Part shown: positions 598-31,213 of the stretch, in pieces
Position numbering within the stretch: position 1 is the first letter of the stretch
Layout: each line of letters opens with the position of its first letter
Assembly (NCBI RefSeq): GCF_022846255.1
Contig: NZ_AP025682.1
Source: Escherichia coli
GTDB taxonomy: Bacteria > Pseudomonadota > Gammaproteobacteria > Enterobacterales > Enterobacteriaceae
Direction: 5' to 3' (one strand)
Length of the DNA: 64,000 bases
Program-made: the position numbers and the translations under genes
The notes under the pieces: generated by a model
Told to the model about the DNA's origin: nothing
The model's database searches: none
What the model saw: the letters and a program-made list of their open reading frames with translations, nothing else

Positions 598-1039
598 AGT
601 AAGTACAAAACCTATTCGTTGTATGACAAATGTCACAATTCGATCATGGATAAATCGGGGCAAAAATGCAATGTTGCAGCACTATTTATCTCATATTATT
701 TGAGGGTTATAACTTCACATTATCCCCGAATTATAAGTGGTAATAATAAAGCGTTATTTAAGAAATATCGCATGTGGAGACGCCATATTAAATATTGTCA
801 ACCTAAAGAAACTCCTAAAAACCATATTGAATGACACTTAATATAATTCTTAAAAATAGCCAATTGCCGAATTGTTACCTTGCCTGCTATTCCGTTAGCT
901 GTAACACTTCCTCCTGCATTATTGGAGAGCCAATATTCAATTACCATAATGTCACCTTATATTCGGAAATTAATTTCCGCAATAACCCTTTCTCATCAAC
1001 GACTGTATGCAGAGAGGGTTTGAAAAATTAAACTAAATC

Positions 1040-1078
1040 AGTGTGTTGGTAGCTAAAAAGCCAGGGGCGGTAGCGTGT
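1040..1078 (+). promoter_or_regulatory. JUMPstart element with ops site (GGCGGTAGCGTG at 1066..1077) in the cps leader
   Basis: Exact ops 12-mer inside a 39-bp block nearly identical to the block upstream of rfbB at 25204..25243; about 180 bp upstream of the wza start. Confidence 0.8.
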
Positions 1079-1255: not shown

Positions 1256-2395
1256 ATGATGAAATCCAAAATGAAATTGATGCCATTATTGGTGTCAGTA
1301 ACCTTGATAAGCGGTTGCACAGTACTTCCGGGCAGCAATATGTCGACGATGGGGAAAGACGTCATCAAACAGCAGGACGCTGATTTCGACCTCGACAAAA
1401 TGGTGAATGTTTATCCGTTAACCCCGCGCCTGATTGATCAATTACGCCCACGACCCAACGTAGCGCGCCCCAATATGACGCTGGAAAGTGAGATCGCGAA
1501 TTACCAGTATCGCGTCGGGCCGGGGGACGTTCTTAATGTCACCGTCTGGGATCACCCGGAACTCACCACGCCAGCCGGTCAGTACCGCAGCTCCAGCGAC
1601 ACCGGCAACTGGGTACAGCCTGACGGCACCATGTTCTACCCGTATATCGGCAAGGTTCACGTCGTGGGGAAAACGCTCGCTGAAATCCGCAGTGATATTA
1701 CCGGGCGCTTAGCGACGTACATCTCTGACCCGCAGGTGGACGTTAATATCGCCGCCTTCCGCTCGCAAAAAGCCTATATCTCCGGTCAGGTGAATAAATC
1801 CGGTCAACAGGCGATTACCAACGTGCCTCTGACCATTCTCGACGCTATCAACGCCGCAGGTGGCCTGACCGACACCGCTGACTGGCGCAACGTGGTGCTA
1901 ACACACAATGGTCGTGAAGAGCGCATTTCTTTGCAGGCGCTGATGCAAAACGGCGACCTCAATCAGAACCGACTGCTTTACCCCGGCGATATTCTTTACG
2001 TGCCACGTAATGATGATCTGAAAGTGTTTGTGATGGGTGAAGTGAAGAAACAGAGCACCCTGAAAATGGACTTTAGCGGCATGACCCTGACTGAAGCCCT
2101 GGGCAATGCTGAAGGCATCGACATGACCACCTCCAACGCCAGCGGCATCTTTGTCATTCGTCCGCTGAAAGGCGAGAGCGGGCGTAACGGCAAGATTGCC
2201 AATATCTACCAGCTGGATATGTCCGATGCGACGTCGCTGGTAATGGCGACAGAATTCCGCCTGCAACCTTATGACGTGGTGTATGTCACCACCGCCCCGG
2301 TATCCCGCTGGAACCGTCTGATCAATCAGTTGCTGCCAACTATTAGCGGTGTCCGTTACATGACGGATACAGCCAGCGACATTCATAACTGGTAA
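1256..2395 (+). CDS. wza: Outer-membrane polysaccharide export lipoprotein (colanic acid)
   Basis: 379-aa ORF; N-terminus [21 protein letters not shown] has a lipoprotein signal with lipobox Cys; first gene of the cps operon. Confidence 0.95.
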
Positions 2396-2400
2396 TCGTC

Positions 2401-2844
2401 ATGTTTAACAACATTTTAGTTGTCTGTGTCGGCAATATTTGCCGTTCCCCGACGGCGGAACGCTTACTGCAACGTTATCACCCGGAGCTGAAAGTGGAGT
2501 CCGCTGGACTCGGCGCGCTGGTCGGTAAGGGCGCTGACCCTACTGCTATCAGCGTCGCCGCAGAACATCAACTGTCTCTGGAAGGTCACTGTGCACGGCA
2601 AATCAGCCGTCGCCTGTGTCGCAACTACGACCTGATTTTGACCATGGAAAAGCGCCATATCGAACGCTTATGCGAGATGGCACCTGAGATGCGCGGCAAA
2701 GTGATGCTGTTTGGTCACTGGGATAACGAATGTGAAATCCCCGATCCGTATCGCAAAAGCCGGGAAACGTTTGCAGCGGTGTACACATTACTTGAACGGT
2801 CTGCCCGCCAGTGGGCGCAGGCATTGAACGCAGAGCAGGTATAA
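2401..2844 (+). CDS. wzb: Low-molecular-weight protein-tyrosine phosphatase
   Basis: 147 aa; CVGNICRSP P-loop motif near the N-terminus; starts 5 bp after wza. Confidence 0.95.
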   Translation: MFNNILVVCVGNICRSPTAERLLQRYHPELKVESAGLGALVGKGADPTAISVAAEHQLSLEGHCARQISRRLCRNYDLILTMEKRHIERLCEMAPEMRGKVMLFGHWDNECEIPDPYRKSRETFAAVYTLLERSARQWAQALNAEQV

Positions 2845-2846
2845 GA

Positions 2847-5009
2847 ATGACAGAAAAAGTAAAACAACATGCCGCTCCGGTAACGGGCAGTGATGAAATC
2901 GATATTGGTCGCCTGGTCGGCACCGTCATTGAAGCGCGCTGGTGGGTGATTGGCATCACCGCTGTATTTGCCCTCTGTTCCGTGGTTTACACTTTCTTCG
3001 CCACGCCGATTTATAGTGCCGACGCACTGGTACAAATCGAGCAAAACAGTGGCAATTCGTTAGTGCAGGACATTGGTTCGGCATTAGCCAACAAACCGCC
3101 AGCATCGGACGCCGAGATCCAGTTGATTCGTTCGCGTCTGGTGCTTGGTAAAACGGTGGACGATCTCGACCTCGATATTGCGGTGAGCAAAAACACGTTC
3201 CCGATTTTCGGTGCGGGCTGGGATCGCCTGATGGGACGTCAGAACGAGACGGTGAAAGTGACCACCTTTAACCGCCCGAAAGAGATGGCGGATCGGGTGT
3301 TTACGCTTAATGTGCTTGATGACAAAAACTACACCCTGAGCAGTGATGGCGGCTTTAGCGCCCGTGGGCAAGCGGGCCAGATGCTGAAAAAAGAAGGCGT
3401 CACGCTGATGGTTGAAGCTATTCACGCCAGCCCGGGGAGTGAGTTTACCGTCACCAAATACTCCACGCTGGGGATGATCAACCAACTGCAAAACAGCCTG
3501 ACGGTAACGGAGAACGGCAAAGACGCAGGCGTACTGAGCTTGACTTATACCGGTGAAGATCGCGAACAGATCCGCGACATTCTTAACAGCATCGCCCGTA
3601 ACTATCAGGAGCAAAATATTGAGCGCAAATCGGCGGAAGCGTCGAAAAGCCTCGCCTTCCTCGCGCAACAGTTGCCGGAAGTACGTAGCCGCCTTGATGT
3701 TGCCGAAAACAAACTGAATGCCTTCCGTCAGGATAAAGATTCTGTTGATCTGCCGCTGGAAGCAAAAGCGGTGCTCGATTCGATGGTGAACATCGACGCG
3801 CAGTTGAACGAACTGACCTTTAAAGAGGCGGAAATCTCCAAGCTGTACACCAAAGTTCATCCGGCGTACCGCACGCTGCTGGAGAAACGGCAGGCGCTGG
3901 AAGACGAAAAAGCCAAACTTAATGGTCGCGTAACGGCGATGCCGAAAACCCAGCAGGAAATTGTCCGTCTGACCCGCGATGTCGAGTCTGGGCAGCAGGT
4001 CTATATGCAACTGCTGAATAAAGAGCAGGAGCTGAAAATCACCGAAGCCAGCACCGTCGGCGATGTGCGCATTGTTGACCCGGCAATCACCCAGCCAGGT
4101 GTACTGAAACCGAAGAAAGGGCTGATTATCCTTGGGGCGATTATCCTTGGCCTGATGCTCTCTATCGTGGGTGTGCTGCTGCGCTCGTTGTTTAATCGCG
4201 GTATCGAAAGCCCGCAGGTGCTGGAAGAACACGGTATCAGCGTCTATGCCAGCATCCCGCTGTCGGAGTGGCAGAAAGCGCGCGATAGCGTCAAAACCAT
4301 CAAAGGGATTAAACGCTATAAACAGAGCCAGCTACTGGCGGTGGGGAATCCAACCGATCTGGCGATTGAAGCCATCCGTAGTCTGCGTACCAGTCTGCAC
4401 TTCGCGATGATGCAGGCACAGAACAATGTGTTGATGATGACCGGGGTTAGCCCGTCAATCGGTAAAACCTTTGTCTGCGCCAACCTGGCGGCGGTGATTA
4501 GCCAGACCAATAAACGGGTGTTGTTGATCGACTGCGATATGCGCAAAGGCTACACCCACGAGCTGTTGGGCACTAATAACGTTAATGGCCTGTCGGAAAT
4601 TCTGATTGGTCAGGGCGATATTACTACCGCTGCTAAACCGACCTCTATTGCCAAATTTGATCTGATCCCGCGCGGTCAGGTTCCGCCAAATCCTTCTGAA
4701 CTGTTGATGAGCGAACGTTTTGCCGAACTGGTGAACTGGGCGAGTAAAAACTACGACCTGGTGTTGATTGATACGCCGCCGATTCTGGCAGTGACCGATG
4801 CGGCAATTGTTGGTCGTCATGTCGGAACCACGTTGATGGTGGCGCGTTATGCAGTCAACACATTGAAAGAAGTGGAAACCAGTCTGAGCCGCTTTGAGCA
4901 AAACGGTATTCCGGTGAAAGGGGTGATTCTGAACTCCATCTTCCGCCGCGCCAGCGCATATCAGGATTATGGCTATTACGAATACGAATATAAGTCGGAC
5001 GCGAAATAA
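2847..5009 (+). CDS. wzc: Tyrosine autokinase / polysaccharide co-polymerase (PCP-2a)
   Basis: Start taken at the ATG at 2847 (MTEKVKQH...) rather than the longer track ORF that overlaps wzb; Walker A SPSIGKT; Tyr-rich C-terminus YQDYGYYEYEYKSDAK. Confidence 0.93.
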   Translation: MTEKVKQHAAPVTGSDEIDIGRLVGTVIEARWWVIGITAVFALCSVVYTFFATPIYSADALVQIEQNSGNSLVQDIGSALANKPPASDAEIQLIRSRLVLGKTVDDLDLDIAVSKNTFPIFGAGWDRLMGRQNETVKVTTFNRPKEMADRVFTLNVLDDKNYTLSSDGGFSARGQAGQMLKKEGVTLMVEAIHASPGSEFTVTKYSTLGMINQLQNSLTVTENGKDAGVLSLTYTGEDREQIRDILNSIARNYQEQNIERKSAEASKSLAFLAQQLPEVRSRLDVAENKLNAFRQDKDSVDLPLEAKAVLDSMVNIDAQLNELTFKEAEISKLYTKVHPAYRTLLEKRQALEDEKAKLNGRVTAMPKTQQEIVRLTRDVESGQQVYMQLLNKEQELKITEASTVGDVRIVDPAITQPGVLKPKKGLIILGAIILGLMLSIVGVLLRSLFNRGIESPQVLEEHGISVYASIPLSEWQKARDSVKTIKGIKRYKQSQLLAVGNPTDLAIEAIRSLRTSLHFAMMQAQNNVLMMTGVSPSIGKTFVCANLAAVISQTNKRVLLIDCDMRKGYTHELLGTNNVNGLSEILIGQGDITTAAKPTSIAKFDLIPRGQVPPNPSELLMSERFAELVNWASKNYDLVLIDTPPILAVTDAAIVGRHVGTTLMVARYAVNTLKEVETSLSRFEQNGIPVKGVILNSIFRRASAYQDYGYYEYEYKSDAK

Positions 5010-5011
5010 CG

Positions 5012-5086
5012 AGGCCGGTTGCCCGATACCTGCATTCGCACCGCCCCGTAGGCCGGATAAGGCGTTCACGCCGCATCCGGCAAGCA
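5012..5086. repeat. REP (repetitive extragenic palindrome) in the wzc-wcaA spacer
   Basis: gtaggccggataaggcgttcacgccgcatccggcaag palindromic motif typical of E. coli REP. Confidence 0.7.
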
Positions 5087-5115
5087 AACCAGCTCATAAG
5101 CCGGGAGAACAACCT

Positions 5116-5955
5116 ATGAAAGACAATCCGCTGATTTCAATCTATATGCCGACCTGGAACCGCCAACAACTGGCGATTCGGGCGATAAAATCGGTCCTGC
5201 GCCAGGACTACAGTAACTGGGAGATGATCATCGTGGATGATTGCTCCACCTCCTGGGAACAACTCCAACAGTACGTCACCGCCCTCAACGATCCGCGTAT
5301 CACTTACATTCACAACGACATTAACAGCGGAGCGTGCGCGGTACGTAACCAGGCGATTATGCTGGCGCAAGGGGAATACATCACCGGGATCGATGATGAT
5401 GATGAATGGACACCCAACCGCCTGAGCGTCTTCCTCGCCCATAAACAGCAACTGGTCACAAACGCCTTTTTGTACGCTAACGACTACGTTTGCCAGGGCG
5501 AAGTCTATTCCCAACCGGCAAGTTTGCCGCTGTATCCCAAATCGCCGTATTCACGCCGCCTGTTTTACAAACGCAATATCATTGGCAATCAGGTCTTTAC
5601 CTGGGCGTGGCGTTTCAAAGAGTGCTTGTTCGATACCGAACTGAAAGCGGCACAGGATTACGACATCTTCCTGCGGATGGTGGTGGAGTACGGCGAACCG
5701 TGGAAAGTAGAAGAGGCGACGCAGATCCTGCATATCAATCACGGCGAAATGCAGATCACCTCGTCACCGAAAAAATTCTCCGGATACTTCCACTTTTACC
5801 GCAAGCACAAAGACAAATTCGACCGCGCCAGCAAAAAATATCAGCTGTTTACCCTCTACCAGATCCGCAATAAACGCATGACCTGGCGCACTTTGCTGAC
5901 GCTGCTGTCGGTGCGTAACGGCAAACGTCTGGCTGATGGTATTCGGGGGCGCTAA
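5116..5955 (+). CDS. wcaA: Colanic acid glycosyltransferase (GT2)
   Basis: Start taken at the ATG at 5116 (MKDNPLISIYMPTWNRQ...); the track ORF's 5' extension covers the REP spacer; GT2 motifs IYMPTWN and DDDDE. Confidence 0.9.
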   Translation: MKDNPLISIYMPTWNRQQLAIRAIKSVLRQDYSNWEMIIVDDCSTSWEQLQQYVTALNDPRITYIHNDINSGACAVRNQAIMLAQGEYITGIDDDDEWTPNRLSVFLAHKQQLVTNAFLYANDYVCQGEVYSQPASLPLYPKSPYSRRLFYKRNIIGNQVFTWAWRFKECLFDTELKAAQDYDIFLRMVVEYGEPWKVEEATQILHINHGEMQITSSPKKFSGYFHFYRKHKDKFDRASKKYQLFTLYQIRNKRMTWRTLLTLLSVRNGKRLADGIRGR

Positions 5956-5957
5956 AG

Positions 5958-6446
5958 ATGCTGGAAGATCTGCGCGCCAACAGCTGGAGTTTACGCCCGT
6001 GCTGCATGGTTCTCGCCTATCGCGCTGCTCATTTTTGTTCGGTGTGGCGCAAAAAGAACGTCCTCAACAATCTTTGGGCGGCCCCGCTGCTGGTGCTGTA
6101 TCGCATTATCACCGAATGCTTTTTCGGTTATGAAATCCAGGCCGCCGCGACCATTGGCCGACGCTTTACTATCCATCACGGTTACGCCGTAGTGATCAAT
6201 AAAAACGTGGTAGCGGGGGATGATTTCACCATTCGTCACGGCGTCACTATCGGCAATCGTGGTGCCGATAACATGGCATGTCCACACATTGGCAACGGCG
6301 TCGAACTCGGTGCCAACGTCATTATTCTTGGTGATATCACGATTGGTAACAACGTCACCGTGGGCGCGGGCAGCGTGGTGCTCGACTCTGTCCCGGACAA
6401 CGCGCTGGTGGTGGGAGAAAAAGCGCGAGTGAAGGTAATTAAATGA
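5958..6446 (+). CDS. wcaB: Colanic acid acetyltransferase (hexapeptide-repeat)
   Basis: 162 aa; left-handed beta-helix repeats (IGNRGADN, GNGVELGANVIILGDITIGNNVTVGAGSVV). Confidence 0.9.
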   Translation: MLEDLRANSWSLRPCCMVLAYRAAHFCSVWRKKNVLNNLWAAPLLVLYRIITECFFGYEIQAAATIGRRFTIHHGYAVVINKNVVAGDDFTIRHGVTIGNRGADNMACPHIGNGVELGANVIILGDITIGNNVTVGAGSVVLDSVPDNALVVGEKARVKVIK

Positions 6447-7660
6447 ATATTCTGCAATTTAATGTGCGACTGGCGGAAGGCGGGGCAGCAGGTGTGGCGT
6501 TAGATCTCCACCAGCGCGCGCTGCAACAGGGGCTGGCGTCACATTTTGTCTACGGCTACGGCAAAGGCGGCAAAGAGAGCGTCAGCCATCAGAACTATCC
6601 GCAGGTCATCAAACATACGCCACGGATGACCGCGATGGCGAACATTGCGTTGTTTCGTCTGCTTAATCGCGATCTGTTCGGCAATTTCAATGAGTTATAT
6701 CGCACCATTACTCGCACACCGGGCCCGGTGGTTCTGCATTTTCATGTGCTGCACAGCTACTGGTTGAATCTTAAGAGCGTGGTGCGCTTTTGCGAAAAAG
6801 TGAAAAACCATAAACCGGATGTCACTCTGGTCTGGACGCTACACGACCATTGGAGCGTTACCGGACGCTGCGCCTTTACCGACGGTTGCGAAGGCTGGAA
6901 AACGGGCTGCCAGAAATGCCCGACCTTAAATAACTATCCACCGGTAAAGATTGATCGCGCGCACCAGCTGGTGGCGGGCAAACGGCAGTTATTTCGCGAG
7001 ATGCTGGCGCTGGGCTGTCAGTTTATTTCCCCCAGCCAGCATGTGGCTGATGCTTTCAATAGTCTGTACGGTCCAGGGCGTTGCCGGATTATCAATAATG
7101 GCATTGATATGGCAACCGAAGCGATTCTGGCGGACTTGCCTCCGGTGCGCGAAACTCAGGGCAAGCCGAAAATCGCGGTGGTAGCGCATGACCTGCGTTA
7201 CGACGGCAAGACTAACCAGCAACTGGTGCGTGAGATGATGGCGCTGGGCGACAAAATCGAACTACATACCTTCGGTAAGTTCTCGCCGTTCACCGCTGGC
7301 AACGTGGTTAATCACGGCTTTGAAACTGACAAGCGCAAGTTGATGAGCGCGCTCAATCAGATGGATGCGCTGGTATTCAGTTCTCGCGTCGATAACTACC
7401 CACTGATTTTGTGTGAGGCGCTATCGATTGGTGTGCCGGTGATTGCCACCCATAGCGATGCGGCGCGGGAAGTGCTGCAAAAATCCGGTGGTAAAACCGT
7501 CAGCGAAGAAGATGTGCTGCAACTGGTGCAGTTAAGCAAACCGGAAATCGCACAGGCGATATTTGGTACCACGCTGGCTGAGTTCAGCCAGCGCAGCCGC
7601 GCCGCCTACAGTGGACAACAGATGCTGGAGGAGTATGTCAACTTCTATCAGAATCTGTAG
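6443..7660 (+). CDS. wcaC: Colanic acid glycosyltransferase
   Basis: 405 aa; 4-bp overlap with wcaB; operon position. Confidence 0.9.
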   Translation: MNILQFNVRLAEGGAAGVALDLHQRALQQGLASHFVYGYGKGGKESVSHQNYPQVIKHTPRMTAMANIALFRLLNRDLFGNFNELYRTITRTPGPVVLHFHVLHSYWLNLKSVVRFCEKVKNHKPDVTLVWTLHDHWSVTGRCAFTDGCEGWKTGCQKCPTLNNYPPVKIDRAHQLVAGKRQLFREMLALGCQFISPSQHVADAFNSLYGPGRCRIINNGIDMATEAILADLPPVRETQGKPKIAVVAHDLRYDGKTNQQLVREMMALGDKIELHTFGKFSPFTAGNVVNHGFETDKRKLMSALNQMDALVFSSRVDNYPLILCEALSIGVPVIATHSDAAREVLQKSGGKTVSEEDVLQLVQLSKPEIAQAIFGTTLAEFSQRSRAAYSGQQMLEEYVNFYQNL

Positions 7661-8855
7661 CTACCTGCTGCTGCCGCTGATCTACCTGCTGGTTAACGTT
7701 AAAATCGCCCAGCTTGGCGAAAGTTTCCCCATCACCATCGTCACTTTTTTACCTGTCTTGTTACTGCTGTTTTTAGAGCGCATCAGCGTTAAAAAATTGA
7801 TGATTGCCTTAGGGATTGGCGCGGGGCTCACGGCGTTTAACTACCTGTTTGGTCAGTCGTTGGATGCCAGTAAATATGTCACTTCAACCATGCTGTTTGT
7901 CTATATTGTGATCATTATTGGCATGGTGTGGAGTATTCGCTTTAAAACGATTTCTCCACACAACCATCGCAAGATATTACGTTTCTTTTATCTGGTGGTC
8001 GGGCTGGTGGTGGTGCTGGCGGCGGTGGAGATGGCGCAAATTATCCTCACCGGCGGTAGCAGTATTATGGAGTCGATTTCGAAATATCTGATTTACAGCA
8101 ACAGCTATGTGCTGAATTTCATTAAATTTGGCGGCAAGCGCACGACAGCACTTTATTTCGAACCGGCATTTTTCGCTCTGGCATTAATCTCAATTTGGCT
8201 CAGCATCAAACAGTTTGGTATCAAAACGCCTAAAACCGATGCTATGATTCTCGCAGGGATAATATTATCCGGATCGTTTTCAGGGGTTATGACCTTTATC
8301 CTGTTTTATTTGCTGGAGTGGGCATTTCAATATCTGAATAAAGAGGCGATTAAGAAAAAGTTACCGTTAGCATTGATTTCTCTGGCTGTATTCCTGGTTG
8401 GTGTGGTAATCGCGTTCCCTTATATTTCCACCCGTCTGGGCGATTTAGGTACAGAAGGATCGTCATCGTATTATCGTATTGTCGGTCCGCTGGTGATGGT
8501 CGGTTATTCTTTAACCCATATTGACGGTGTAGTCAGATTTGGCTCACTTTATGAATATGTCGCATCATTCGGAATATTTAACGGTGCGGATGTCGGAAAA
8601 ACCATAGACAATGGTTTGTATCTGCTGATTATTTATTTTTCCTGGTTCGCGGTGCTTTTATCACTGTGGTACATGGGGAAAGTGATAAAAATGATGATCA
8701 ACGCTTTTGGTGATAACCGCAATTTTCGCGTGCAATTATATCTTTTTACTCCGGTATCGCTGTTTTTTACCGGTTCGATATTTAGCCCGGAATATGCATT
8801 TTTAATCGTCTGTCCGTTTATTTTGCGAAAAGCGTTAAATATACACCCTAAATAA
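7635..8855 (+). CDS. wcaD: Putative colanic acid polymerase (Wzy-like polytopic membrane protein)
   Basis: Start taken at the ATG at 7635 (MSTSIRICSYLLLPLIYLL...); multiple predicted transmembrane helices; overlaps the wcaC 3' end by 26 nt. Confidence 0.85.
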   Translation: MSTSIRICSYLLLPLIYLLVNVKIAQLGESFPITIVTFLPVLLLLFLERISVKKLMIALGIGAGLTAFNYLFGQSLDASKYVTSTMLFVYIVIIIGMVWSIRFKTISPHNHRKILRFFYLVVGLVVVLAAVEMAQIILTGGSSIMESISKYLIYSNSYVLNFIKFGGKRTTALYFEPAFFALALISIWLSIKQFGIKTPKTDAMILAGIILSGSFSGVMTFILFYLLEWAFQYLNKEAIKKKLPLALISLAVFLVGVVIAFPYISTRLGDLGTEGSSSYYRIVGPLVMVGYSLTHIDGVVRFGSLYEYVASFGIFNGADVGKTIDNGLYLLIIYFSWFAVLLSLWYMGKVIKMMINAFGDNRNFRVQLYLFTPVSLFFTGSIFSPEYAFLIVCPFILRKALNIHPK

Positions 8856-8890
8856 TTCGAGTTGCAGGAAGTGGGTGAGCGAGGAAAACC

Positions 8891-8922
<32 letters not shown>

Positions 8923-8935
8923 TACGAGGTAAAAC

Positions 8936-9682
8936 ATGTTGCTTAGCATAATCACTGTCGCGTTTCGTAACCTCGAAGGAATAGTCAAAACACACGCCTC
9001 GCTGGCGCATCTGGCGCAGGCGGACGATATCAGCTTCGAATGGATTGTTGTTGATGGCGGTTCCAACGACGGCACCCGTGAGTATCTGGAAAATCTCAAT
9101 GGTATCTATAACCTACGCTTTGTCAGCGAGCCAGATAACGGTATCTACGACGCCATGAACAAAGGTATTGAAATGGCGCAAGGCAAGTTCGCGCTGTTTC
9201 TCAATTCAGGCGATATTTTTCATCAGGATGCCGCAAATTTTGTCCGTAAGTTAAAAATGCAAAAAGATAACGTGATGATCACCGGCGATGCGCTGCTGGA
9301 TTTTGGCGACGGGCATAAAATTAAACGTAGCGCCAAACCGGGTTGGTATATTTATCACAGCCTGCCCGCCAGTCATCAGGCGATATTTTTCCCGGTATCC
9401 GGCTTGAAAAAATGGCGTTATGACCTGGAATATAAAGTTTCTTCCGATTACGCGCTGGCGGCCAAAATGTATAAAGCTGGTTATGCATTTAGAAAACTCA
9501 ATGGCCTGGTGTCTGAATTTTCTATGGGTGGGGTATCAACCACCAATAATATGGAATTGTGTGCTGACGCCAAAAAAGTCCAAAGGCAGATATTACATGT
9601 GCCTGGCTTCTGGGCTGAATTATCCTGGCATTTACGCCAACGTACTACCTCAAAGACGAAAGCCTTATATAACAAAAGCTGA
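8936..9682 (+). CDS. wcaE: Colanic acid glycosyltransferase (GT2)
   Basis: 248 aa; GT2-like N-terminus ([13 protein letters not shown]..., [10 protein letters not shown]). Confidence 0.9.
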
Positions 9683-9697
9683 ATATAAGGGAAAACG

Positions 9698-10246
9698 ATG
9701 CAAGATTTAAGCGGTTTCTCGGTACCGAAAGGGTTCCGGGGCAGCAATGCTATTAAAGTGCAATTGTGGTGGGCGGTACAGGCAACAATATTTGCCTGGT
9801 CGCCACAAGTATTGTATCGCTGGCGGGCTTTTTTATTACGTTTATTCGGCGCAAAAATAGGAAAAAACGTAGTTATTCGTCCGTCAGTAAAAATTACCTA
9901 TCCGTGGAAATTAACTTTAGGTGATTACGCGTGGGTCGGCGATGAGGTCAATTTATATACCCTAGGTGAAATAACCATTGGCGCACATTCGGTGATATCG
10001 CAAAAAAGTTATTTATGCACCGGGAGCCACGACCATGCAAGTCAACATTTCACCATTAACGCCACGCCTATTGTGATAGGCGAGAAATGCTGGCTGGCGA
10101 CAGATGTTTTTGTTGCCCCTGGCGTCACGATCGGCAACGGCACCGTCGTGGGTGCGCGAAGCAGTGTTTTTAAATCGCTTCCGGCAAATGTGGTTTGCCG
10201 GGGGAACCCCGCAGTGGTGATACGCAAACGCGTTGAAACTGAATAA
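9698..10246 (+). CDS. wcaF: Colanic acid acetyltransferase (hexapeptide-repeat)
   Basis: 182 aa; hexapeptide repeats; operon position. Confidence 0.9.
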   Translation: MQDLSGFSVPKGFRGSNAIKVQLWWAVQATIFAWSPQVLYRWRAFLLRLFGAKIGKNVVIRPSVKITYPWKLTLGDYAWVGDEVNLYTLGEITIGAHSVISQKSYLCTGSHDHASQHFTINATPIVIGEKCWLATDVFVAPGVTIGNGTVVGARSSVFKSLPANVVCRGNPAVVIRKRVETE

Positions 10247-10272
10247 ATTCAAAAAATACAGAGGAATAAGAC

Positions 10273-11394
10273 ATGTCAAAAGTCGCTCTCATCACCGGTG
10301 TAACCGGACAAGACGGTTCTTACCTGGCAGAGTTTCTGCTGGAAAAAGGTTACGAGGTGCATGGTATTAAGCGTCGCGCATCGTCATTCAACACCGAGCG
10401 CGTGGATCACATTTATCAGGATCCGCACACCTGCAACCCGAAATTCCATCTGCATTATGGCGACCTGAGTGATACCTCCAACCTGACGCGCATTTTGCGT
10501 GAAGTACAGCCGGATGAAGTGTACAACCTGGGGGCAATGAGCCACGTTGCGGTTTCTTTTGAGTCACCGGAATATACCGCAGACGTTGATGCGATGGGTA
10601 CGCTGCGTCTGCTGGAGGCGATCCGCTTCCTCGGTCTGGAAAAGAAAACCCGTTTCTATCAGGCTTCCACCTCTGAACTGTATGGTCTGGTGCAGGAAAT
10701 TCCGCAGAAAGAAACCACGCCGTTCTATCCACGCTCTCCGTATGCGGTCGCCAAACTGTACGCCTACTGGATCACCGTTAACTACCGCGAATCCTACGGC
10801 ATGTACGCCTGTAACGGTATTCTCTTCAACCATGAATCCCCGCGCCGCGGCGAAACCTTCGTTACCCGCAAAATCACCCGCGCAATCGCCAACATCGCCC
10901 AGGGGCTGGAATCGTGCCTGTACCTCGGCAATATGGATTCCCTGCGTGACTGGGGCCATGCCAAAGACTACGTAAAAATGCAGTGGATGATGCTGCAACA
11001 GGAACAACCGGAAGATTTCGTTATTGCCACCGGCGTTCAGTACTCCGTACGTCAGTTCGTGGAAATGGCGGCAGCACAACTGGGCATCAAACTGCGCTTT
11101 GAAGGTACGGGCGTTGAAGAGAAGGGCATTGTGGTTTCCGTCACCGGGCATGACGCGCCGGGCGTTAAACCGGGCGATGTAATTATCGCCGTTGACCCGC
11201 GTTACTTCCGTCCGGCTGAAGTTGAAACGCTGCTCGGCGACCCGACCAAAGCACACGAAAAGCTGGGCTGGAAACCGGAAATCACCCTCAGAGAAATGGT
11301 ATCTGAAATGGTGGCTAATGACCTTGAAGCAGCGAAAAAACACTCTCTGCTGAAATCTCACGGCTACGACGTGGCGATCGCGCTGGAGTCATAA
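10273..11394 (+). CDS. gmd: GDP-mannose 4,6-dehydratase
   Basis: 373 aa; SDR Rossmann motif [15 protein letters not shown]; operon position. Confidence 0.95.
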
Positions 11395-11396
11395 GC

Positions 11397-12362
11397 ATGA
11401 GTAAACAACGCATTTTTATCGCTGGCCATCGCGGGATGGTCGGTTCTGCCATCAGGCGGCAGCTCGAACAGCGCGGTGATGTGGAACTGGTATTACGCAC
11501 CCGCGACGAACTGAACCTGCTGGACAGCCGCGCGGTGCATGATTTCTTTGCCAGCGAGCGCATTGACCAGGTCTATCTGGCGGCGGCGAAAGTAGGCGGC
11601 ATTGTTGCCAACAACACATATCCGGCAGATTTCATCTACCAGAACATGATGATTGAGAGCAACATCATTCACGCCGCGCATCAGAACGACGTCAACAAAC
11701 TGCTGTTTCTCGGATCGTCCTGTATCTACCCAAAACTGGCAAAACAGCCGATGGTAGAAAGCGAGCTGTTACAGGGCACGCTGGAGCCGACCAACGAGCC
11801 ATACGCCATTGCCAAAATCGCCGGGATCAAACTGTGCGAATCTTACAACCGCCAGTACGGACGCGATTACCGCTCTGTCATGCCGACCAACCTGTACGGG
11901 CCGCACGACAACTTCCATCCGAGTAATTCGCATGTGATCCCTGCATTGCTGCGTCGCTTCCACGAGGCGACGGCACAGAATGCACCGGACGTGGTGGTGT
12001 GGGGCAGCGGTACACCGATGCGCGAATTTCTGCACGTCGATGATATGGCGGCGGCGAGCATTCATGTGATGGAGCTGGCGCACGAAGTCTGGCTGGAGAA
12101 CACCCAACCGATGCTGTCGCACATTAACGTCGGCACGGGCGTTGACTGCACTATCCGCGAGCTGGCGCAAACCATCGCCAAAGTGGTGGGTTACAAAGGT
12201 CGGGTGGTTTTTGATGCCAGTAAACCGGATGGTACGCCGCGCAAACTGCTGGATGTGACGCGGTTGCATCAGCTTGGCTGGTATCACGAAATTTCACTGG
12301 AAGCGGGGCTTGCCAGCACTTACCAGTGGTTCCTTGAGAATCAAGACCGCTTTCGGGGGTAA
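11397..12362 (+). CDS. fcl: GDP-L-fucose synthase
   Basis: 321 aa; N-terminal NAD(P)-binding motif [11 protein letters not shown]; immediately after gmd. Confidence 0.95.
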
Positions 12363-12844
12363 TGATGTTTTTACGTCAGGAAGACTTTGCCACGGTAGTG
12401 CGCTCCACACCGCTTGTCTCTCTCGACTTTATTGTTGAGAACAGTCGCGGCGAGTTTCTGCTTGGCAAAAGAACCAACCGCCCGGCGCAGGGTTACTGGT
12501 TTGTGCCGGGAGGGCGCGTGCAGAAAGACGAAACGCTGGAAGCCGCATTTGAGCGGCTGACGATGGCGGAACTGGGGCTGCGTCTGCCGATAACAGCAGG
12601 CCAGTTTTACGGTGTCTGGCAGCACTTTTATGACGATAACTTCTCCGGCACGGATTTTACCACTCACTATGTGGTGCTCGGTTTTCGCTTCAGAGTAGCG
12701 GAAGAAGAGCTGTTACTGCCGGATGAGCAGCATGACGATTACCGCTGGCTGACGCCGGACGCGTTGCTCGCCAGTAACGATGTTCACGCTAACAGCCGCG
12801 CCTATTTTCTCGCTGAGAAGCGTGCCGGAGTACCCGGATTATGA
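12362..12844 (+). CDS. gmm: GDP-mannose mannosyl hydrolase (Nudix)
   Basis: 159/160 aa; Nudix box [23 protein letters not shown]; the start may be the second ATG at 12365. Confidence 0.9.
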
Positions 12845-14064
12845 AAATACTGGTCTACGGCATTAACTACTCGCCGGAGTTAACCGGCATCGGCAAATAC
12901 ACCGGAGAGATGGTTGAATGGCTGGCGGCGCAAGGTCATGAGGTGCGGGTTATTACCGCACCGCCTTACTACCCGCAGTGGCAGGTGGGCGAGAACTATT
13001 CCGCCTGGCGGTACAAACGGGAAGAGGGGGCCGCCACGGTGTGGCGCTGCCCGCTGTACGTGCCAAAACAGCCGAGCACCCTGAAACGCCTGTTGCATCT
13101 CGGCAGTTTTGCCGTCAGCAGTTTTTTCCCGTTGATGGCGCAACGTCGCTGGAAGCCGGATCGCATTATCGGCGTAGTGCCAACGCTGTTTTGCACGCCA
13201 GGAATGCGCCTGCTGGCGAAACTGTCTGGTGCGCGCACGGTGCTCCATATTCAGGATTACGAAGTGGACGCCATGCTGGGGCTGGGCCTTGCCGGAAAAG
13301 GTAAAGGCGGCAAAGTGGCACAGCTGGCAACGGCGTTCGAACGTAGCGGACTGCATAACGTCGATAACGTCTCCACGATTTCGCGTTCGATGATGAATAA
13401 AGCTATCGAAAAAGGCGTGGCGGCGGAAAACGTCATCTTCTTCCCCAATTGGTCGGAAATCGCCCGTTTTCAACATGTTGCAGACGCCGATGTTGACGCC
13501 CTTCGTAACCAGCTTGGCCTGCCGGATAACAAAAAAATCATTCTTTACTCCGGCAATATTGGTGAAAAGCAGGGACTGGAAAACGTTATTGAAGCTGCCG
13601 ATCGCCTGCGCGATGAACCGCTGATTTTTGCCATTGTCGGGCAGGGCGGCGGCAAAGCGCGGCTGGAAAAAATGGCGCAGCAGCGTGGACTGCGCAACAT
13701 GCAATTTTTTCCGCTGCAATCGTATGACGCTTTACCCGCACTGCTGAAGATGGGGGATTGCCATCTGGTGGTGCAAAAACGCGGCGCGGCAGATGCCGTA
13801 TTGCCGTCGAAACTGACCAATATTCTGGCGGTAGGCGGTAACGCGGTGATTACCGCAGAAGCCCACACAGAACTGGGGCAGCTTTGCGAAACCTTTCCGG
13901 GCATTGCGGTTTGCGTGGAACCGGAATCGGTCGAGGCGCTGGTGGCGGGGATTCGTCAGGCGTTCCTGCTGCCCAAACACAACACGGTGGCACGTGAATA
14001 TGCCGAACGCACGCTCGATAAAGAGAACGTGTTACGTCAATTTATAAATGATATTCGGGGATAA
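12841..14064 (+). CDS. wcaI: Colanic acid glycosyltransferase (GT4)
   Basis: 407 aa; 4-bp overlap with gmm; operon position. Confidence 0.9.
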
Positions 14065-14066
14065 TT

Positions 14067-15503
14067 ATGGCGCAGTCGAAACTCTATCCAGTTGTGATGG
14101 CAGGTGGCTCCGGTAGCCGCTTATGGCCGCTTTCCCGCGTACTTTACCCCAAGCAGTTTTTATGCCTGAAAGGCGATCTCACCATGCTGCAAACCACCAT
14201 CTGCCGCCTGAACGGCGTGGAGTGCGAAAGCCCGGTGGTGATTTGCAATGAGCAGCACCGCTTTATTGTCGCGGAACAGCTGCGTCAACTGAATAAACTC
14301 ACCGAGAACATTATTCTCGAACCGGCAGGGCGTAACACTGCACCGGCCATTGCGCTGGCGGCGCTGGCGGCAAAACGTCATAGCCCGGAGAGCGACCCGT
14401 TAATGCTGGTCTTGGCGGCGGATCATGTGATTGCCGACGAAGACGCGTTCCGTGCCGCCGTGCGTAATGCCATGCCGTATGCCGAAGCGGGTAAGCTGGT
14501 CACCTTCGGCATTGTGCCGGATCTACCTGAAACCGGATATGGCTATATTCGTCGCGGTGAAGTGTCGGCGGGCGAGCAGGATACGGTGGCCTTTGAAGTG
14601 GCGCAGTTTGTCGAAAAACCGAATCTGGAAACCGCTCAGGCCTATGTGGCAAGCGGCGAATATTACTGGAACAGCGGTATGTTCCTGTTCCGTGCCGGAC
14701 GCTATCTCGAAGAACTGAAAAAATATCGCCCGGATATTCTCGATGCCTGCGAAAAAGCGATGAGCGCCGTCGATCCGGATCTCGATTTTATTCGTGTGGA
14801 TGAAGAAGCGTTTCTGGCCTGCCCGGAAGAGTCGGTGGATTACGCGGTCATGGAACGCACGGCAGATGCCGTTGTGGTGCCGATGGATGCAGGCTGGAGC
14901 GATGTCGGCTCCTGGTCCTCTTTATGGGAGATCAGCGCCCACACCGCCGAGGGCAACGTTTGCCATGGCGATGTGATTAATCACAAAACTGAAAACAGCT
15001 ATGTGTATGCCGAATCTGGCCTGGTCACCACCGTCGGGGTGAAAGATTTGGTGGTAGTGCAGACCAAAGATGCGGTGCTGATTGCCGACCGTAATGCGGT
15101 GCAGGATGTGAAAAAAGTGGTCGAGCAGATCAAAGCTGATGGTCGCCATGAGCATCGGGTGCATCGCGAAGTGTATCGTCCGTGGGGCAAATATGACTCT
15201 ATCGACGCGGGCGACCGCTATCAGGTGAAACGCATCACCGTGAAACCGGGCGAAGGCTTGTCAGTACAGATGCACCATCACCGCGCGGAACACTGGGTAG
15301 TGGTCGCGGGAACGGCAAAAGTCACTATTGACGGTGATATCAAACTGCTTGGTGAAAACGAGTCCATTTATATTCCGCTGGGGGCGACGCACTGCCTGGA
15401 AAACCCGGGGAAAATTCCGCTCGATTTAATTGAAGTGCGCTCCGGCTCTTATCTCGAAGAGGATGATGTGGTGCGCTTCGCGGATCGCTACGGACGGGTG
15501 TAG
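14067..15503 (+). CDS. cpsB: Mannose-1-phosphate guanylyltransferase
   Basis: 478 aa; N-terminal nucleotidyltransferase motif [17 protein letters not shown]-terminal cupin domain. Confidence 0.95.
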
Positions 15504-15603
15504 CCGTTGAATAATCAACCGGATTAATTCTCCGGTAAATAACGAAAAAACAAAATTGGCCGTTTCGGTCAGGGCCAACTATTGCCTGAAAAAGGGTAAC
15601 GAC

Positions 15604-16974
15604 ATGAAAAAATTAACCTGCTTTAAAGCCTATGATATTCGCGGGAAATTAGGCGAAGAACTGAATGAAGATATCGCCTGGCGCATTGGTCGCGCCTATG
15701 GCGAATTTCTCAAACCGAAAACCATTGTGTTAGGCTGTGATGTCCGCCTCACCAGCGAAACCTTAAAACTGGCGCTGGCGAAAGGTTTACAGGATGCGGG
15801 CGTCGATGTGCTGGATATTGGCATGTCCGGCACCGAAGAGATCTATTTCGCCACGTTCCATCTCGGCGTGGATGGTGGCATTGAAGTTACCGCCAGCCAT
15901 AACCCGATGGATTACAACGGCATGAAGCTGGTGCGCGAGGGGGCCCGCCCGATCAGCGGTGATACCGGACTGCGCGATGTCCAGCGTCTGGCAGAAGCCA
16001 ACGACTTCCCTCCCGTTGATGAAACCAAACGCGGTCGCTATCAGCAAATCAATCTGCGTGACGCTTACGTTGATCACCTGTTCGGTTATATCAACGTCAA
16101 AAACCTCACGCCGCTCAAGCTGGTGATCAACTCCGGGAACGGCGCAGCGGGTCCGGTGGTGGACGCCATCGAAGCCCGCTTTAACGCCCTCGGCGCACCT
16201 GTGGAATTGATCAAAGTGCACAACACGCCGGACGGCAATTTCCCCAACGGTATTCCTAACCCGCTGCTGCCAGAATGTCGCGACGACACTCGCAATGCGG
16301 TCATTAAACACGGCGCGGATATGGGCATTGCCTTTGATGGCGATTTTGACCGCTGTTTCCTGTTTGACGAAAAAGGGCAGTTTATCGAGGGTTACTACAT
16401 TGTCGGTTTGCTGGCAGAAGCGTTCCTCGAAAAAAATCCCGGCGCGAAGATCATCCACGATCCACGTCTCTCCTGGAACACCGTTGATGTGGTGACTGCC
16501 GCAGGTGGCACGCCGGTAATGTCGAAAACCGGACACGCCTTTATTAAAGAACGTATGCGCAAGGAAGACGCCATCTACGGTGGCGAAATGAGCGCCCACC
16601 ATTACTTCCGTGATTTCGCTTACTGCGACAGCGGCATGATCCCATGGCTGCTGGTGGCCGAACTGGTGTGCCTGAAAGGAAAAACGCTGGGCGAACTGGT
16701 GCGCGACCGGATGGCAGCGTTTCCGGCAAGCGGTGAGATCAACAGCAAACTGGCGCAACCCGTTGAGGCGATTAACCGCGTCGAACAGCATTTTAGCCGT
16801 GAGGCGCTGGCGGTGGATCGCACCGATGGCATCAGTATGACCTTTGCCGACTGGCGCTTTAATCTGCGCTCCTCCAACACCGAACCGGTGGTGCGGTTGA
16901 ATGTGGAATCGCGCGGTGACGTGCCGCTGATGGAAGCGCGAACGCGAACTCTGCTGACGTTGCTGAACGAGTAA
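15604..16974 (+). CDS. cpsG: Phosphomannomutase
   Basis: Start taken at the ATG at 15604 ([14 protein letters not shown]...), giving 456 aa; phosphohexomutase active-site motif TASHNP. Confidence 0.93.
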
Positions 16975-17028
16975 TGTCGGATCTTCCCTTACCCCACTGC
17001 GGGTAAGGGGCTAATAACAGGAACAACG

Positions 17029-18423
17029 ATGACAAATCTAAAAAAGCGCGAGCGAGCGAAAACCAATGCATCGTTAATCTCTATGGTGCAACGCTTTTCA
17101 GATATCACCATCATGTTTGCCGGACTATGGCTGGTTTGCGAAGTGAGCGGACTGTCATTCCTCTACATGCACCTGTTGGTGGCGCTGATTACGCTGGTGG
17201 TGTTCCAGATGCTGGGCGGCATCACCGATTTTTATCGCTCATGGCGCGGTGTTCGGGCATCGACAGAATTTGCTCTGTTGCTACAAAACTGGACGTTAAG
17301 CGTGATTTTCAGCGCCGGACTGGTGGCGTTTAACAATGATTTCGACACGCAACTGAAAATCTGGCTGGCGTGGTATGGACTGACCAGCATCGGACTGGTG
17401 GTTTGCCGTTCGTGTATTCGCATTGGGGCGGGCTGGCTGCGTAATCATGGCTATAACAAACGCATGGTCGCCGTAGCGGGGGATTTAGCCGCCGGACAAA
17501 TGCTGATGGAAAGCTTCCGTAATCAGCCGTGGTTAGGGTTTGAAGTGGTGGGCGTTTACCACGACCCGAAACCGGGCGGCGTTTCTAACGACTGGGCGGG
17601 CAATCTGCAACAACTGGTCGAGGATGCGAAAGCGGGCAAGATTCATAACGTCTATATCGCGATGCAGATGTGCGACGGCGCGCGAGTGAAAAAACTGGTC
17701 CATCAACTGGCGGACACCACCTGTTCGGTGCTGCTGATCCCCGATGTCTTTACCTTCAACATTCTCCATTCCCGTCTCGAAGAGATGAACGGCGTACCGG
17801 TGGTGCCGCTGTATGACACGCCGCTTTCCGGGGTTAACCGCCTGCTAAAACGTGCGGAAGATATTGTGCTGGCGACGCTTATTCTGCTGCTGATCTCCCC
17901 GGTGCTGTGCTGTATTGCGCTGGCGGTAAAACTCAGTTCACCAGGACCGGTTATTTTCCGCCAGACTCGCTATGGCATGGATGGCAAGCCGATCAAAGTG
18001 TGGAAGTTCCGTTCGATGAAAGTGATGGAGAACGACAAAGTGGTGACCCAGGCGACGCAGAACGATCCGCGCGTCACCAAAGTGGGGAACTTTCTGCGCC
18101 GCACCTCGCTGGATGAATTGCCGCAGTTTATCAATGTGCTGACCGGGGGGATGTCGATTGTCGGTCCACGTCCGCACGCGGTGGCGCATAACGAACAGTA
18201 TCGCCAGCTCATTGAAGGCTACATGCTGCGCCATAAAGTGAAACCGGGCATTACCGGTTGGGCGCAGATTAACGGCTGGCGCGGCGAAACCGACACGCTG
18301 GAGAAAATGGAAAAACGCGTCGAGTTCGACCTTGAGTACATCCGCGAATGGAGCGTCTGGTTCGATATCAAAATCGTTTTCCTGACGGTATTCAAGGGCT
18401 TCGTTAACAAAGCGGCATATTGA
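17029..18423 (+). CDS. wcaJ: UDP-glucose:undecaprenyl-phosphate glucose-1-phosphate transferase
   Basis: 464 aa; N-terminal transmembrane segments plus C-terminal bacterial sugar-transferase domain (PGITGWAQINGWRGETD). Confidence 0.93.
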   Translation: MTNLKKRERAKTNASLISMVQRFSDITIMFAGLWLVCEVSGLSFLYMHLLVALITLVVFQMLGGITDFYRSWRGVRASTEFALLLQNWTLSVIFSAGLVAFNNDFDTQLKIWLAWYGLTSIGLVVCRSCIRIGAGWLRNHGYNKRMVAVAGDLAAGQMLMESFRNQPWLGFEVVGVYHDPKPGGVSNDWAGNLQQLVEDAKAGKIHNVYIAMQMCDGARVKKLVHQLADTTCSVLLIPDVFTFNILHSRLEEMNGVPVVPLYDTPLSGVNRLLKRAEDIVLATLILLLISPVLCCIALAVKLSSPGPVIFRQTRYGMDGKPIKVWKFRSMKVMENDKVVTQATQNDPRVTKVGNFLRRTSLDELPQFINVLTGGMSIVGPRPHAVAHNEQYRQLIEGYMLRHKVKPGITGWAQINGWRGETDTLEKMEKRVEFDLEYIREWSVWFDIKIVFLTVFKGFVNKAAY

Positions 18424-18424
18424 T

Positions 18425-19903: not shown

Positions 19904-19975
19904 ATGGCTGTTTTCGGTTCCGGCAACGAACACAACAAACATAGCCTCACCTGGCATCAAATTTATGAGGAAAAA

Positions 19976-22473: not shown

Positions 22474-22483
22474 AGGAGAACGC

Positions 22484-25203: not shown

Positions 25204-25243
25204 GCAGTGCTCTGGTAGCTGTAAAGCCAGGGGCGGTAGCGTG
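25204..25243 (+). promoter_or_regulatory. JUMPstart element with ops site (GGCGGTAGCGTG at 25232..25243) in the O-antigen operon leader
   Basis: 39-bp block cagtgctctggtagctgtaaagccaggggcggtagcgtg, about 75 bp upstream of rfbB; near-identical to the cps-leader copy. Confidence 0.85.
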
Positions 25244-27303: not shown

Positions 27304-27360
27304 TAGTTTTTGCATCTTGTTCGTGATGGTGGAGCAAGATGAATTAAAAGGAATGATGAA

Positions 27361-28239: not shown

Positions 28240-28243
28240 TAAA

Positions 28244-28792: not shown

Positions 28793-28823
28793 GATCACGA
28801 TAAATCTTGGAAGGGTTGCAAAA

Positions 28824-30062: not shown

Positions 30063-30071
30063 GGAATAGTT

Positions 30072-31199: not shown

Positions 31200-31213
31200 T
31201 TTAAGCTAAAAAT

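What the first reader, a model, noticed from the sequence alone, without database searches (positions are those of the whole stretch)
1040..1078. Two near-identical JUMPstart/ops elements mark RfaH-dependent leaders of both polysaccharide operons: cps copy
The 39-bp block with the ops 12-mer GGCGGTAGCGTG lies about 180 bp upstream of wza and is almost identical to the copy upstream of rfbB (25204..25243). This indicates both the roughly 23-kb cps operon and the O-antigen operon depend on RfaH antitermination for distal gene expression.
Basis: partly seen in the sequence, partly recalled or inferred. Interest (0 to 1): 0.3.

Follow-up and report, generated by a model that had tools for sequence, protein, structure and literature searches.

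The report
Known JUMPstart/ops site before wza
This is the well-known 39-base JUMPstart/ops signal in the leader of the E. coli colanic acid (wza-wcaM) operon, with a twin in front of the O-antigen operon; it loads the elongation factor RfaH onto RNA polymerase so that these long operons are transcribed to the end, and it is ordinary and already described.

Summary
The exact ops 12-mer GGCGGTAGCGTG occurs twice in the 64-kb window, at 1066-1077 and 25232-25243. Both copies are on the sense strand, inside Rfam JUMPstart (RF01707) matches at 1039-1077 (53.8 bits) and 25205-25243 (60.0 bits; gathering score 35). The two 39-mers are 34/39 identical, with the last 21 bases identical, and their flanks are unrelated.

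The window is E. coli with an O1-type O-antigen cluster. The first copy lies 178 nt before wza, the start of the 22.6-kb wza-wcaM colanic acid operon. The second lies 75 nt before rfbB.

The same two ops sites in E. coli CFT073 are listed as RfaH ChIP-seq targets (PMC9765446). The O-antigen site is bound in wild type. The wza site is bound only once H-NS/StpA silencing of its promoter is removed.

In 31 other Enterobacterales genomes carrying a JUMPstart-type match, wza-wzb-wzc follows in 23 of 29 usable loci.

RfaH dependence of distal cps genes is less directly documented than for rfb. The coordinates are off by one base. Verdict: already known (Hobbs & Reeves 1994; Stout 1996), low interest.

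The parts
1039..1077 (+). JUMPstart element, cps (colanic acid) copy: CAGTGTGTTGGTAGCTAAAAAGCCAGGGGCGGTAGCGTG
   Evidence: Rfam RF01707, 53.8 bits against a gathering score of 35, model positions 1-38 of 38; sequence read
1066..1077 (+). ops 12-mer GGCGGTAGCGTG (RfaH loading and pause site) on the non-template strand of the cps leader
   Evidence: Exact match; identical to the CFT073 wza ops listed with RfaH ChIP signal
25205..25243 (+). JUMPstart element, O-antigen (rfb) copy: CAGTGCTCTGGTAGCTGTAAAGCCAGGGGCGGTAGCGTG
   Evidence: Rfam RF01707, 60.0 bits; identical to the K-12, CFT073 and ATCC 11775 copies
25232..25243 (+). ops 12-mer of the O-antigen leader
   Evidence: Exact match; the CFT073 equivalent binds RfaH in wild type
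1256..23878 (+). Colanic acid operon wza-wzb-wzc-wcaABCDEF-gmd-fcl-gmm-wcaI-cpsB-cpsG-wcaJ-wzxC-wcaKLM (22.6 kb), the transcription unit served by the first ops
   Evidence: ORFs; RefSeq annotation of 97-99% identical DNA in ATCC 11775 and CFT073
25319..35369 (+). O1-type O-antigen operon rfbBDAC-wzx-wecB-GT-wzy-GT-GT (about 10 kb, 31-45% GC), served by the second ops
   Evidence: ORFs; annotation of ATCC 11775 (O1 family wzx/wzy) at matching coordinates; composition
880..907 (+). Candidate cps promoter (TTGCCT, 16 nt, TAACAC, with TG two bases upstream). It would start a leader of about 340 nt with JUMPstart near +125 to +163. Inferred, not mapped.
   Evidence: This block is conserved upstream of wza in Escherichia, Enterobacter, Kluyvera, Atlantibacter and Citrobacter while its surroundings diverge. 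These bases were not part of the search pattern.
804..851 (+). Two conserved A/T-rich blocks resembling the RcsAB box consensus TaAGaatatTCctA (10/14 each): TAAAGAAACTCCTA at 804-817 and TAATATAATTCTTA at 838-851, the second on the opposite strand. Candidate Rcs activation sites of the cps promoter.
   Evidence: Conservation in the alignment. The consensus is recalled from Wehland & Bernhard 2000 (cited in PMC9976346) and the match was counted by eye; binding was not tested.
5052..5081 (+). REP-type G+C-rich hairpin in the wzc-wcaA gap. Candidate internal barrier that RfaH-modified polymerase reads through.
   Evidence: Sequence and fold. PMC3673037 states that RfaH is required for genes downstream of wzc. 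The link to this particular hairpin is my inference.

Best explanation
Bases 1039-1077 are the JUMPstart element of the colanic acid (cps/wca) operon leader. Its 3' end is the ops site GGCGGTAGCGTG.

Proposed mechanism:
1. Transcription starts at an Rcs-activated, H-NS-silenced promoter upstream. I infer this to be about 880-907, with the start near 915.
2. When RNA polymerase reaches ops it pauses, and the ops bases of the exposed non-template DNA strand are presented as a small hairpin.
3. RfaH, the specialised NusG paralog, recognises this DNA, opens up, and binds the polymerase in place of NusG.
4. The modified polymerase resists pausing, backtracking, Rho-dependent termination and H-NS/StpA roadblocks. 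RfaH's C-terminal domain recruits a ribosome to genes with weak Shine-Dalgarno sites.
5. The polymerase therefore reaches the end of the 22.6-kb operon.

The copy at 25205-25243 does the same for the low-GC O1 O-antigen operon. There the transcript start, mapped by homology to CFT073, lies near 25165, 67 nt before ops.

Shown here: the presence, strand, position and family membership of both elements; their identity to experimentally RfaH-bound sites; and the conserved linkage to wza across Enterobacterales. Taken from the literature: RfaH binding and its mechanism. Inferred: the cps promoter position and which internal barriers are overcome.
For: Sequence: the exact ops 12-mer occurs twice and only twice, both copies on the sense strand of leaders. 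Both are full-length Rfam JUMPstart matches well above the gathering score. The copies are 34/39 identical within unrelated flanks, which points to a discrete shared element rather than a duplicated region.

Context: wza-wcaM and rfbB-led operons lie directly downstream on the same strand.

Experiment in a close relative: the cps copy differs from CFT073, K-12 and ATCC 11775 by one base outside ops, and the rfb copy is identical. CFT073 ChIP-seq lists exactly these sites as RfaH-bound, with the signal absent in delta-rfaH and RfaH staying on polymerase through the transcription unit (PMC9765446).

Comparison: a scan of one genome per species found the JUMPstart-type pattern only in Enterobacterales. 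In 23 of 29 loci with usable downstream DNA, wza-wzb-wzc followed on the same strand. In Escherichia whittamii, Citrobacter, Atlantibacter, Kluyvera and Enterobacter the spacing matches that seen here.

Against: No experiment exists on this strain, and rfaH is not in the window. In CFT073 the wza site showed RfaH signal only in a delta-hns delta-stpA background, so under ordinary laboratory conditions the element is idle. ChIP shows recruitment, not that distal cps genes fail without RfaH. The primary papers on that point (Stout 1996; Navasa 2014) could not be read, and PMC3673037 hedges with 'presumably cps'. The cps transcript start is inferred from conservation only; the generic promoter scan instead picked a 9/12 match at 923-950. 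Conservation inside the element across the 31 loci is circular, because those bases were the search pattern.
Confidence: 0.91

Rival explanations
1. The conserved block works mainly as an RNA structure in the leader (the hairpin drawn in the Rfam 'JUMPstart RNA' model), affecting mRNA stability or translation rather than loading RfaH through DNA.
For: The Rfam model contains a 5-bp stem, UGGU(A)/(G)CCAG-type, that both copies can form. The cps copy keeps the outer pair as U-G where the rfb copy has C-G. The rfb leader folds somewhat better than shuffles (z -2.28).
Against: Minimum-energy folds of the two copies in their own context differ and do not use the Rfam stem. The cps copy is no more stable than shuffled sequence (z -0.42). 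The only variation seen in the stem is one-sided, and the comparative set fixed the stem bases by construction, so covariation could not be tested. Published work places recognition in the non-template DNA strand (Artsimovitch & Landick 2002, cited in PMC9765446).
Confidence: 0.04
2. The cps copy is a vestigial or idle relic. Colanic acid expression is governed only by RcsAB at the promoter, and distal genes do not need RfaH.
For: No RfaH or polymerase signal at wza in wild-type CFT073 in rich medium. The cps operon has ordinary GC content (52-56%), unlike the low-GC rfb cluster that is a typical H-NS/Rho target. One source says only 'presumably cps'.
Against: The ops is exact. The linkage to wza holds across many genera with diverged flanks. 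RfaH does load at this site once the promoter fires. Other papers state dependence.
Confidence: 0.04
3. The two blocks match by chance, or are left over from a recent duplication or gene conversion between the two leaders, without function.
For: An 8-mer ops core alone is not rare: five copies in the window against 1.5 expected.
Against: The full 12-mer is expected 0.29 times even with one mismatch allowed, yet occurs exactly twice, both in leaders. Rfam E-values are 1e-9 to 1e-11. Similarity ends sharply at the element edges. The same element sits before wza and rfbB in distant genera.
Confidence: 0.01

Closest known systems
JUMPstart sequence (Hobbs & Reeves 1994; Rfam RF01707) containing the ops element (Nieto, Bailey, Hughes & Koronakis 1996-97)
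   Same: Length of 39 bases, full-length model match, exact ops 12-mer, sense-strand position in the untranslated leader of a long surface-polysaccharide operon.
   Different: Nothing of substance. The E. coli copies have one more base in the loop than the Rfam consensus. This strain has G instead of A at 1045.
The cps/wca leader JUMPstart of E. coli K-12 (Stout 1996) and the wza ops of CFT073 (PMC9765446)
   Same: Same locus and same distance to wza. 38 of 39 bases are identical to both, including the whole ops and the following 28 bases.
   Different: One base (1045). wza and wzb are intact here, whereas the CFT073 RefSeq record marks them as pseudogenes.
The rfb (O-antigen) JUMPstart downstream of galF (Wang et al. 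1998; Marolda & Valvano 1998)
   Same: The copy at 25205-25243 is identical to those of K-12, CFT073 and ATCC 11775. RfaH is bound in wild-type CFT073.
   Different: The operon behind it differs by serotype: O1 here, O6 in CFT073.
Group 1 capsule (K30) cps leader with JUMPstart and an internal stem-loop after wzc (Rahn & Whitfield 2003; recalled from memory)
   Same: wza-wzb-wzc come first, followed by a G+C-rich hairpin and then the biosynthesis genes.
   Different: Here the hairpin is a REP-type element, variable between strains. Its role as an attenuator in the colanic acid operon was not tested.

Membership tests
JUMPstart (Rfam RF01707) | Covariance-model score at or above the curated gathering score (35 bits) over the full model | tested here: met
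   53.8 bits (1039-1077) and 60.0 bits (25205-25243), model positions 1-38 of 38
JUMPstart / ops | ops core GGCGGTAG, extended consensus RGGCGGTAGYNT, at the 3' end of the element | tested here: met
   gGGCGGTAGCGTg in both copies; consensus as quoted in PMC3101779
JUMPstart / ops | ops lies on the non-template (sense) strand, upstream of the first gene of the operon | tested here: met
   Both copies are on the + strand, 178 nt before wza and 75 nt before rfbB, and both operons are on the + strand
JUMPstart / ops | ops lies downstream of the transcription start, that is, it is transcribed | tested here: inconclusive
   rfb: the CFT073 transcription-unit start is 67 nt upstream of ops, and the gap-free alignment places it near window 25165. 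cps: no mapped start was available; conserved promoter-like blocks at 880-907 lie upstream of ops, and a sigma-70 ChIP peak upstream of wza is reported for delta-hns delta-stpA CFT073.
RfaH regulon | RfaH physically associates with elongating polymerase from the ops site onward | not testable with these tools
   Published for the identical sites of CFT073 (PMC9765446); not measured for this strain
RfaH regulon | Loss of RfaH or ops lowers expression of promoter-distal genes (polarity) | not testable with these tools
   Stated for O-antigen (Wang et al. 1998, cited) and for cps. The primary cps papers were not readable.
RfaH regulon | The genome encodes RfaH | not testable with these tools
   rfaH lies elsewhere on the E. 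coli chromosome and is not in this window. It is expected because the window is 97-99% identical to E. coli strains.
Colanic acid (wca/cps) gene cluster | Gene order wza-wzb-wzc-wcaA...wcaM between yegH and galF | tested here: met
   The ORF series is collinear with RefSeq-annotated ATCC 11775 and CFT073 at 96-99% DNA identity

The most novel reading that the evidence does not exclude
The upstream half of JUMPstart is not needed for the published RfaH-ops contact. It includes a second GGTAGC hexamer at 1048-1053 that repeats the GGTAGC inside ops (1069-1074). This half might carry a separate function, for example a second protein or RNA signal, or setting up the pause. A second possibility is that the sense-strand ops-core 8-mers inside wcaD (8052) and wcaI (13827) act as RfaH reloading points in the 22.6-kb operon. 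Nothing found here supports either idea. The intragenic sites lack the conserved T11, and PMC9765446 saw no RfaH loading at intragenic ops-like sites.
Probability: 0.05. Interest if true: 0.35.

Novelty: already known. Interest (0 to 1): 0.07.

Why it matters
It matters only as correct annotation. It marks where RfaH loads on the two adjacent surface-polysaccharide operons, colanic acid and O1 antigen, of this E. coli. It explains how a 22.6-kb and a low-GC 10-kb operon can be transcribed to the end, and it predicts that an rfaH mutant would lose both polymers. All of this is established for E. coli K-12, CFT073 and relatives, so no open question becomes newly testable.

Tried and rejected
1. 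The genome-contig scan was run with a 5-base spacer between GGTAGC and GCCAGG. The 31 loci found still showed the wza linkage. However, conservation inside the element in these loci is circular, and stem covariation could not be assessed.
2. Stout 1996 (PMC178186) and Navasa 2014 (FEBS Lett) are not held in the library. The mapped cps transcript start and the direct rfaH-mutant data for colanic acid are therefore taken only from citing papers.
3. The generic sigma-70 and terminator scans found no more sites than shuffled sequence and no convincing intrinsic terminator inside the cps operon. They do not locate the promoter or the barriers RfaH overcomes.
4. RNA folding of the two copies gave different structures and no significant stability for the cps copy. 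I therefore rejected an RNA-structure mechanism as the main explanation.
5. I considered chance or a duplicated segment and rejected both.

Full report
OBSERVATION

The sequence at 1039-1077 reads CAGTGTGTTGGTAGCTAAAAAGCCAGGGGCGGTAGCGTG. The sequence at 25205-25243 reads CAGTGCTCTGGTAGCTGTAAAGCCAGGGGCGGTAGCGTG.

The exact 12-mer GGCGGTAGCGTG is found at 1066-1077 and 25232-25243, both on the + strand. Even with one mismatch allowed these are the only two matches in 64 kb, against 0.29 expected by chance. The two 39-mers share 34 of 39 bases and their last 21 bases are identical. In an alignment with 40-50 bases of flank on either side, similarity ends at the edges of the element.

Rfam's JUMPstart model (RF01707) matches both copies over its full length. 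The scores are 53.8 and 60.0 bits (E 1.6e-9 and 2.6e-11) against a gathering score of 35.

Otherwise the description is right.

CONTEXT

The window is E. coli. The wza region is at least 95% identical in 4811 of 5426 complete genomes, and best (99.8%) in B2 strains such as CFT073 and Nissle. The galF-rfbB region is 100% identical to several strains, including ATCC 11775.

ORFs and RefSeq annotation of collinear DNA give the following map:

| Feature | Window position |
|---|---|
| yegH (minus strand) | up to about 597 |
| wza | 1256-2395 |
| wzb, wzc, wcaA-F, gmd, fcl, gmm, wcaI, cpsB, cpsG, wcaJ, wzxC, wcaK, wcaL | between wza and wcaM |
| wcaM | ends at 23878 |
| galF | 24053-24946 |
| rfbBDAC plus O1-family wzx/wzy and glycosyltransferases | 25319-35369 |
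| gnd, ugd, wzzB, then the his operon | downstream of 35369 |

The first ops therefore ends 178 nt before wza, at the head of a 22.6-kb operon. The second ends 75 nt before rfbB, at the head of an operon of about 10 kb whose central genes are only 31-35% GC.

TRANSFER OF EXPERIMENTAL EVIDENCE

The cps copy differs from those of K-12 MG1655, CFT073 and ATCC 11775 at a single base (G at 1045 instead of A). This base lies outside ops, and the 28 bases after ops are the same. The rfb copy is identical in all three strains.

PMC9765446 (mBio 2022) mapped RfaH by ChIP-seq in CFT073. Its Data set S2 lists ops GGCGGTAGCGTG at 2424955-2424966 (wza, untranslated region, RfaH signal yes) and at 2400391-2400402 (O-antigen operon, RfaH signal yes). 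My coordinate conversion of the CFT073 locus puts the window's two sites on exactly these positions.

That paper reports the following:
- RfaH stays with the polymerase throughout the transcription units.
- The signal is lost in delta-rfaH.
- The O-antigen site is used in wild type.
- wza-wcaM is a 'cryptic' RfaH target, seen only in delta-hns delta-stpA, because H-NS silences initiation in rich medium.

For the O-antigen unit, the transcript start is given 67 nt upstream of ops. This corresponds to about 25165 in the window through a gap-free alignment.

Other papers agree. One describes the wca operon as transcribed through a JUMPstart-RfaH antitermination mechanism, citing Stout 1996 and Hobbs & Reeves 1994 (PMC9976346). 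One states that RfaH is required for genes downstream of wzc (PMC3673037). [quoted passage not shown] Wang et al. 1998 showed O-antigen regulation by RfaH through JUMPstart (cited in PMC12212991).

COMPARATIVE EVIDENCE

I ran one scan of a genome per species with GGTAGC-N5-GCCAGGGGCGGTAGCGTG. The spacer was one base shorter than in E. coli, which was my error. The scan returned 31 loci, all in Enterobacterales: Enterobacter, Citrobacter, Kluyvera, Atlantibacter, Escherichia whittamii, Pantoea, Erwinia, Mixta, Tatumella, Brenneria, Serratia, Rahnella and others.

| Genes within 4 kb downstream, same strand | Loci |
|---|---|
| wza-wzb-wzc (two of them after two galF-like genes) | 23 |
| rfbB | 3 |
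| Two galF-like genes, no wza within the 3.6 kb held | 1 |
| No match to the query proteins (Rahnella) | 2 |
| Too short to assess | 2 |

In the genera closest to E. coli the spacing between ops and wza matches that of the window.

An alignment of these leaders shows diverged sequence around the element. The invariance inside the element is by construction, because those bases were the search pattern, and I do not count it as evidence.

Three conserved blocks lie outside the searched pattern:
- 804-817 and 838-851, each matching 10/14 of the RcsAB box consensus as I recall it.
- 880-907 (TTGCCT, 16 nt, TAACAC, with an upstream TG), a plausible activator-dependent promoter.
- 1220-1255, immediately before the wza start codon, which has no good Shine-Dalgarno sequence.

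If the promoter is at 880-907, the leader is about 340 nt and JUMPstart sits at roughly +125 to +163. This is inference; the mapped start in Stout 1996 could not be read.

MECHANISM

The mechanism is taken from established work on RfaH: Artsimovitch & Landick 2002; Belogurov et al. 2009; Burmann et al. 2012; Zuber et al. 2018; Kang et al. 2018. The first is cited and the others are from my own knowledge.

1. Polymerase pauses at ops.
2. The non-template ops DNA forms a short hairpin that RfaH reads.
3. RfaH's domains separate, and its N-terminal domain replaces NusG on the polymerase.
4. Pausing, backtracking and Rho-dependent termination are suppressed, and the refolded C-terminal domain recruits the ribosome.

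PMC9765446 adds that the main obstacle overcome in vivo is the H-NS/StpA filament.

For the cps operon, candidate internal obstacles are the intergenic gaps carrying REP-type hairpins, for example 5052-5081 between wzc and wcaA. These gaps are also the only places where the window fails to align with related strains. The simple terminator scan found nothing above chance within the operon.

RIVALS

An RNA-structure role is not supported. The two copies fold differently in context, and the cps copy is no more stable than shuffles. Chance and segmental duplication are excluded. A vestigial cps copy is unlikely, given the conserved wza linkage and the ChIP signal. However, no polarity measurement was available to me for cps.

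VERDICT

The element is already known at this very locus, so interest is low.

Noticed in passing
window 5052-5081 (wzc-wcaA gap); also gaps 5013-5101, 8842-8930, 15502-15535, 19909-19962: REP-type G+C-rich hairpin (GCCGGATAAGGCGTTCACGCCGCATCCGGC) between wzc and wcaA. The listed intergenic gaps are the only stretches of the cps cluster that do not align with ATCC 11775 or CFT073, so the intergenic repeats vary between strains.
   Followed up: partly
window 15550-15599 (+): Rfam 'algC RNA' motif (RF02929, 78.2 bits) in the gap between cpsB (manC) and cpsG (manB) inside the colanic acid operon.
   Followed up: no
window 46596-46719 (-) and 49017-49091 (+): Histidine operon leader (RF00514, 131.6 bits) ahead of hisG, and the enterobacterial sRNA STnc240 (RF02074, 68.2 bits) further on. 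Both are expected for this E. coli region.
   Followed up: no
window 479-486, 8052-8059, 13827-13834 (+): Three further copies of the ops core GGCGGTAG. The one at 479 lies within the span of yegH, which is on the opposite strand. Those at 8052 and 13827 are on the sense strand inside wcaD and wcaI. All three diverge in the 3' part (GGCGGTAGTTTT, GGCGGTAGCAGT, GGCGGTAGGCGG). Five cores against 1.5 expected is only mildly enriched. PMC9765446 saw no RfaH loading at intragenic ops-like sites.
   Followed up: partly
window 1045: Single-base difference inside the cps JUMPstart, upstream of the stem and of ops: G here, A in K-12 MG1655, CFT073 and ATCC 11775.
   Followed up: yes
window about 798-947 (-): RefSeq annotates a 49-aa 'hypothetical protein' (WP_162829205.1) on the opposite strand in related strains. 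It lies directly over the conserved RcsAB-box-like and promoter-like blocks of the cps leader, so it is probably an over-call on regulatory DNA.
   Followed up: no
window 804-817, 838-851, 880-907, 1220-1255: Blocks conserved across Escherichia, Enterobacter, Kluyvera, Atlantibacter and Citrobacter upstream of wza: two RcsAB-box-like sites, a promoter-like TTGCCT/TGTAACA pair, and the 35 bases before the wza ATG, which lack a clear Shine-Dalgarno sequence.
   Followed up: partly
window 28000-34000: The O1-type O-antigen genes are 31-35% GC, against 52-56% for most of the colanic acid operon. This is typical of horizontally acquired, H-NS-targeted DNA.
   Followed up: no
window 1256-2844 versus L001 (CFT073): wza and wzb are intact ORFs here (379 and 147 aa), but the CFT073 RefSeq record flags them as a frameshifted or internal-stop pseudogene. 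The resequencing table of PMC9765446 lists single-base insertions at those positions, which suggests errors in the old reference.
   Followed up: no
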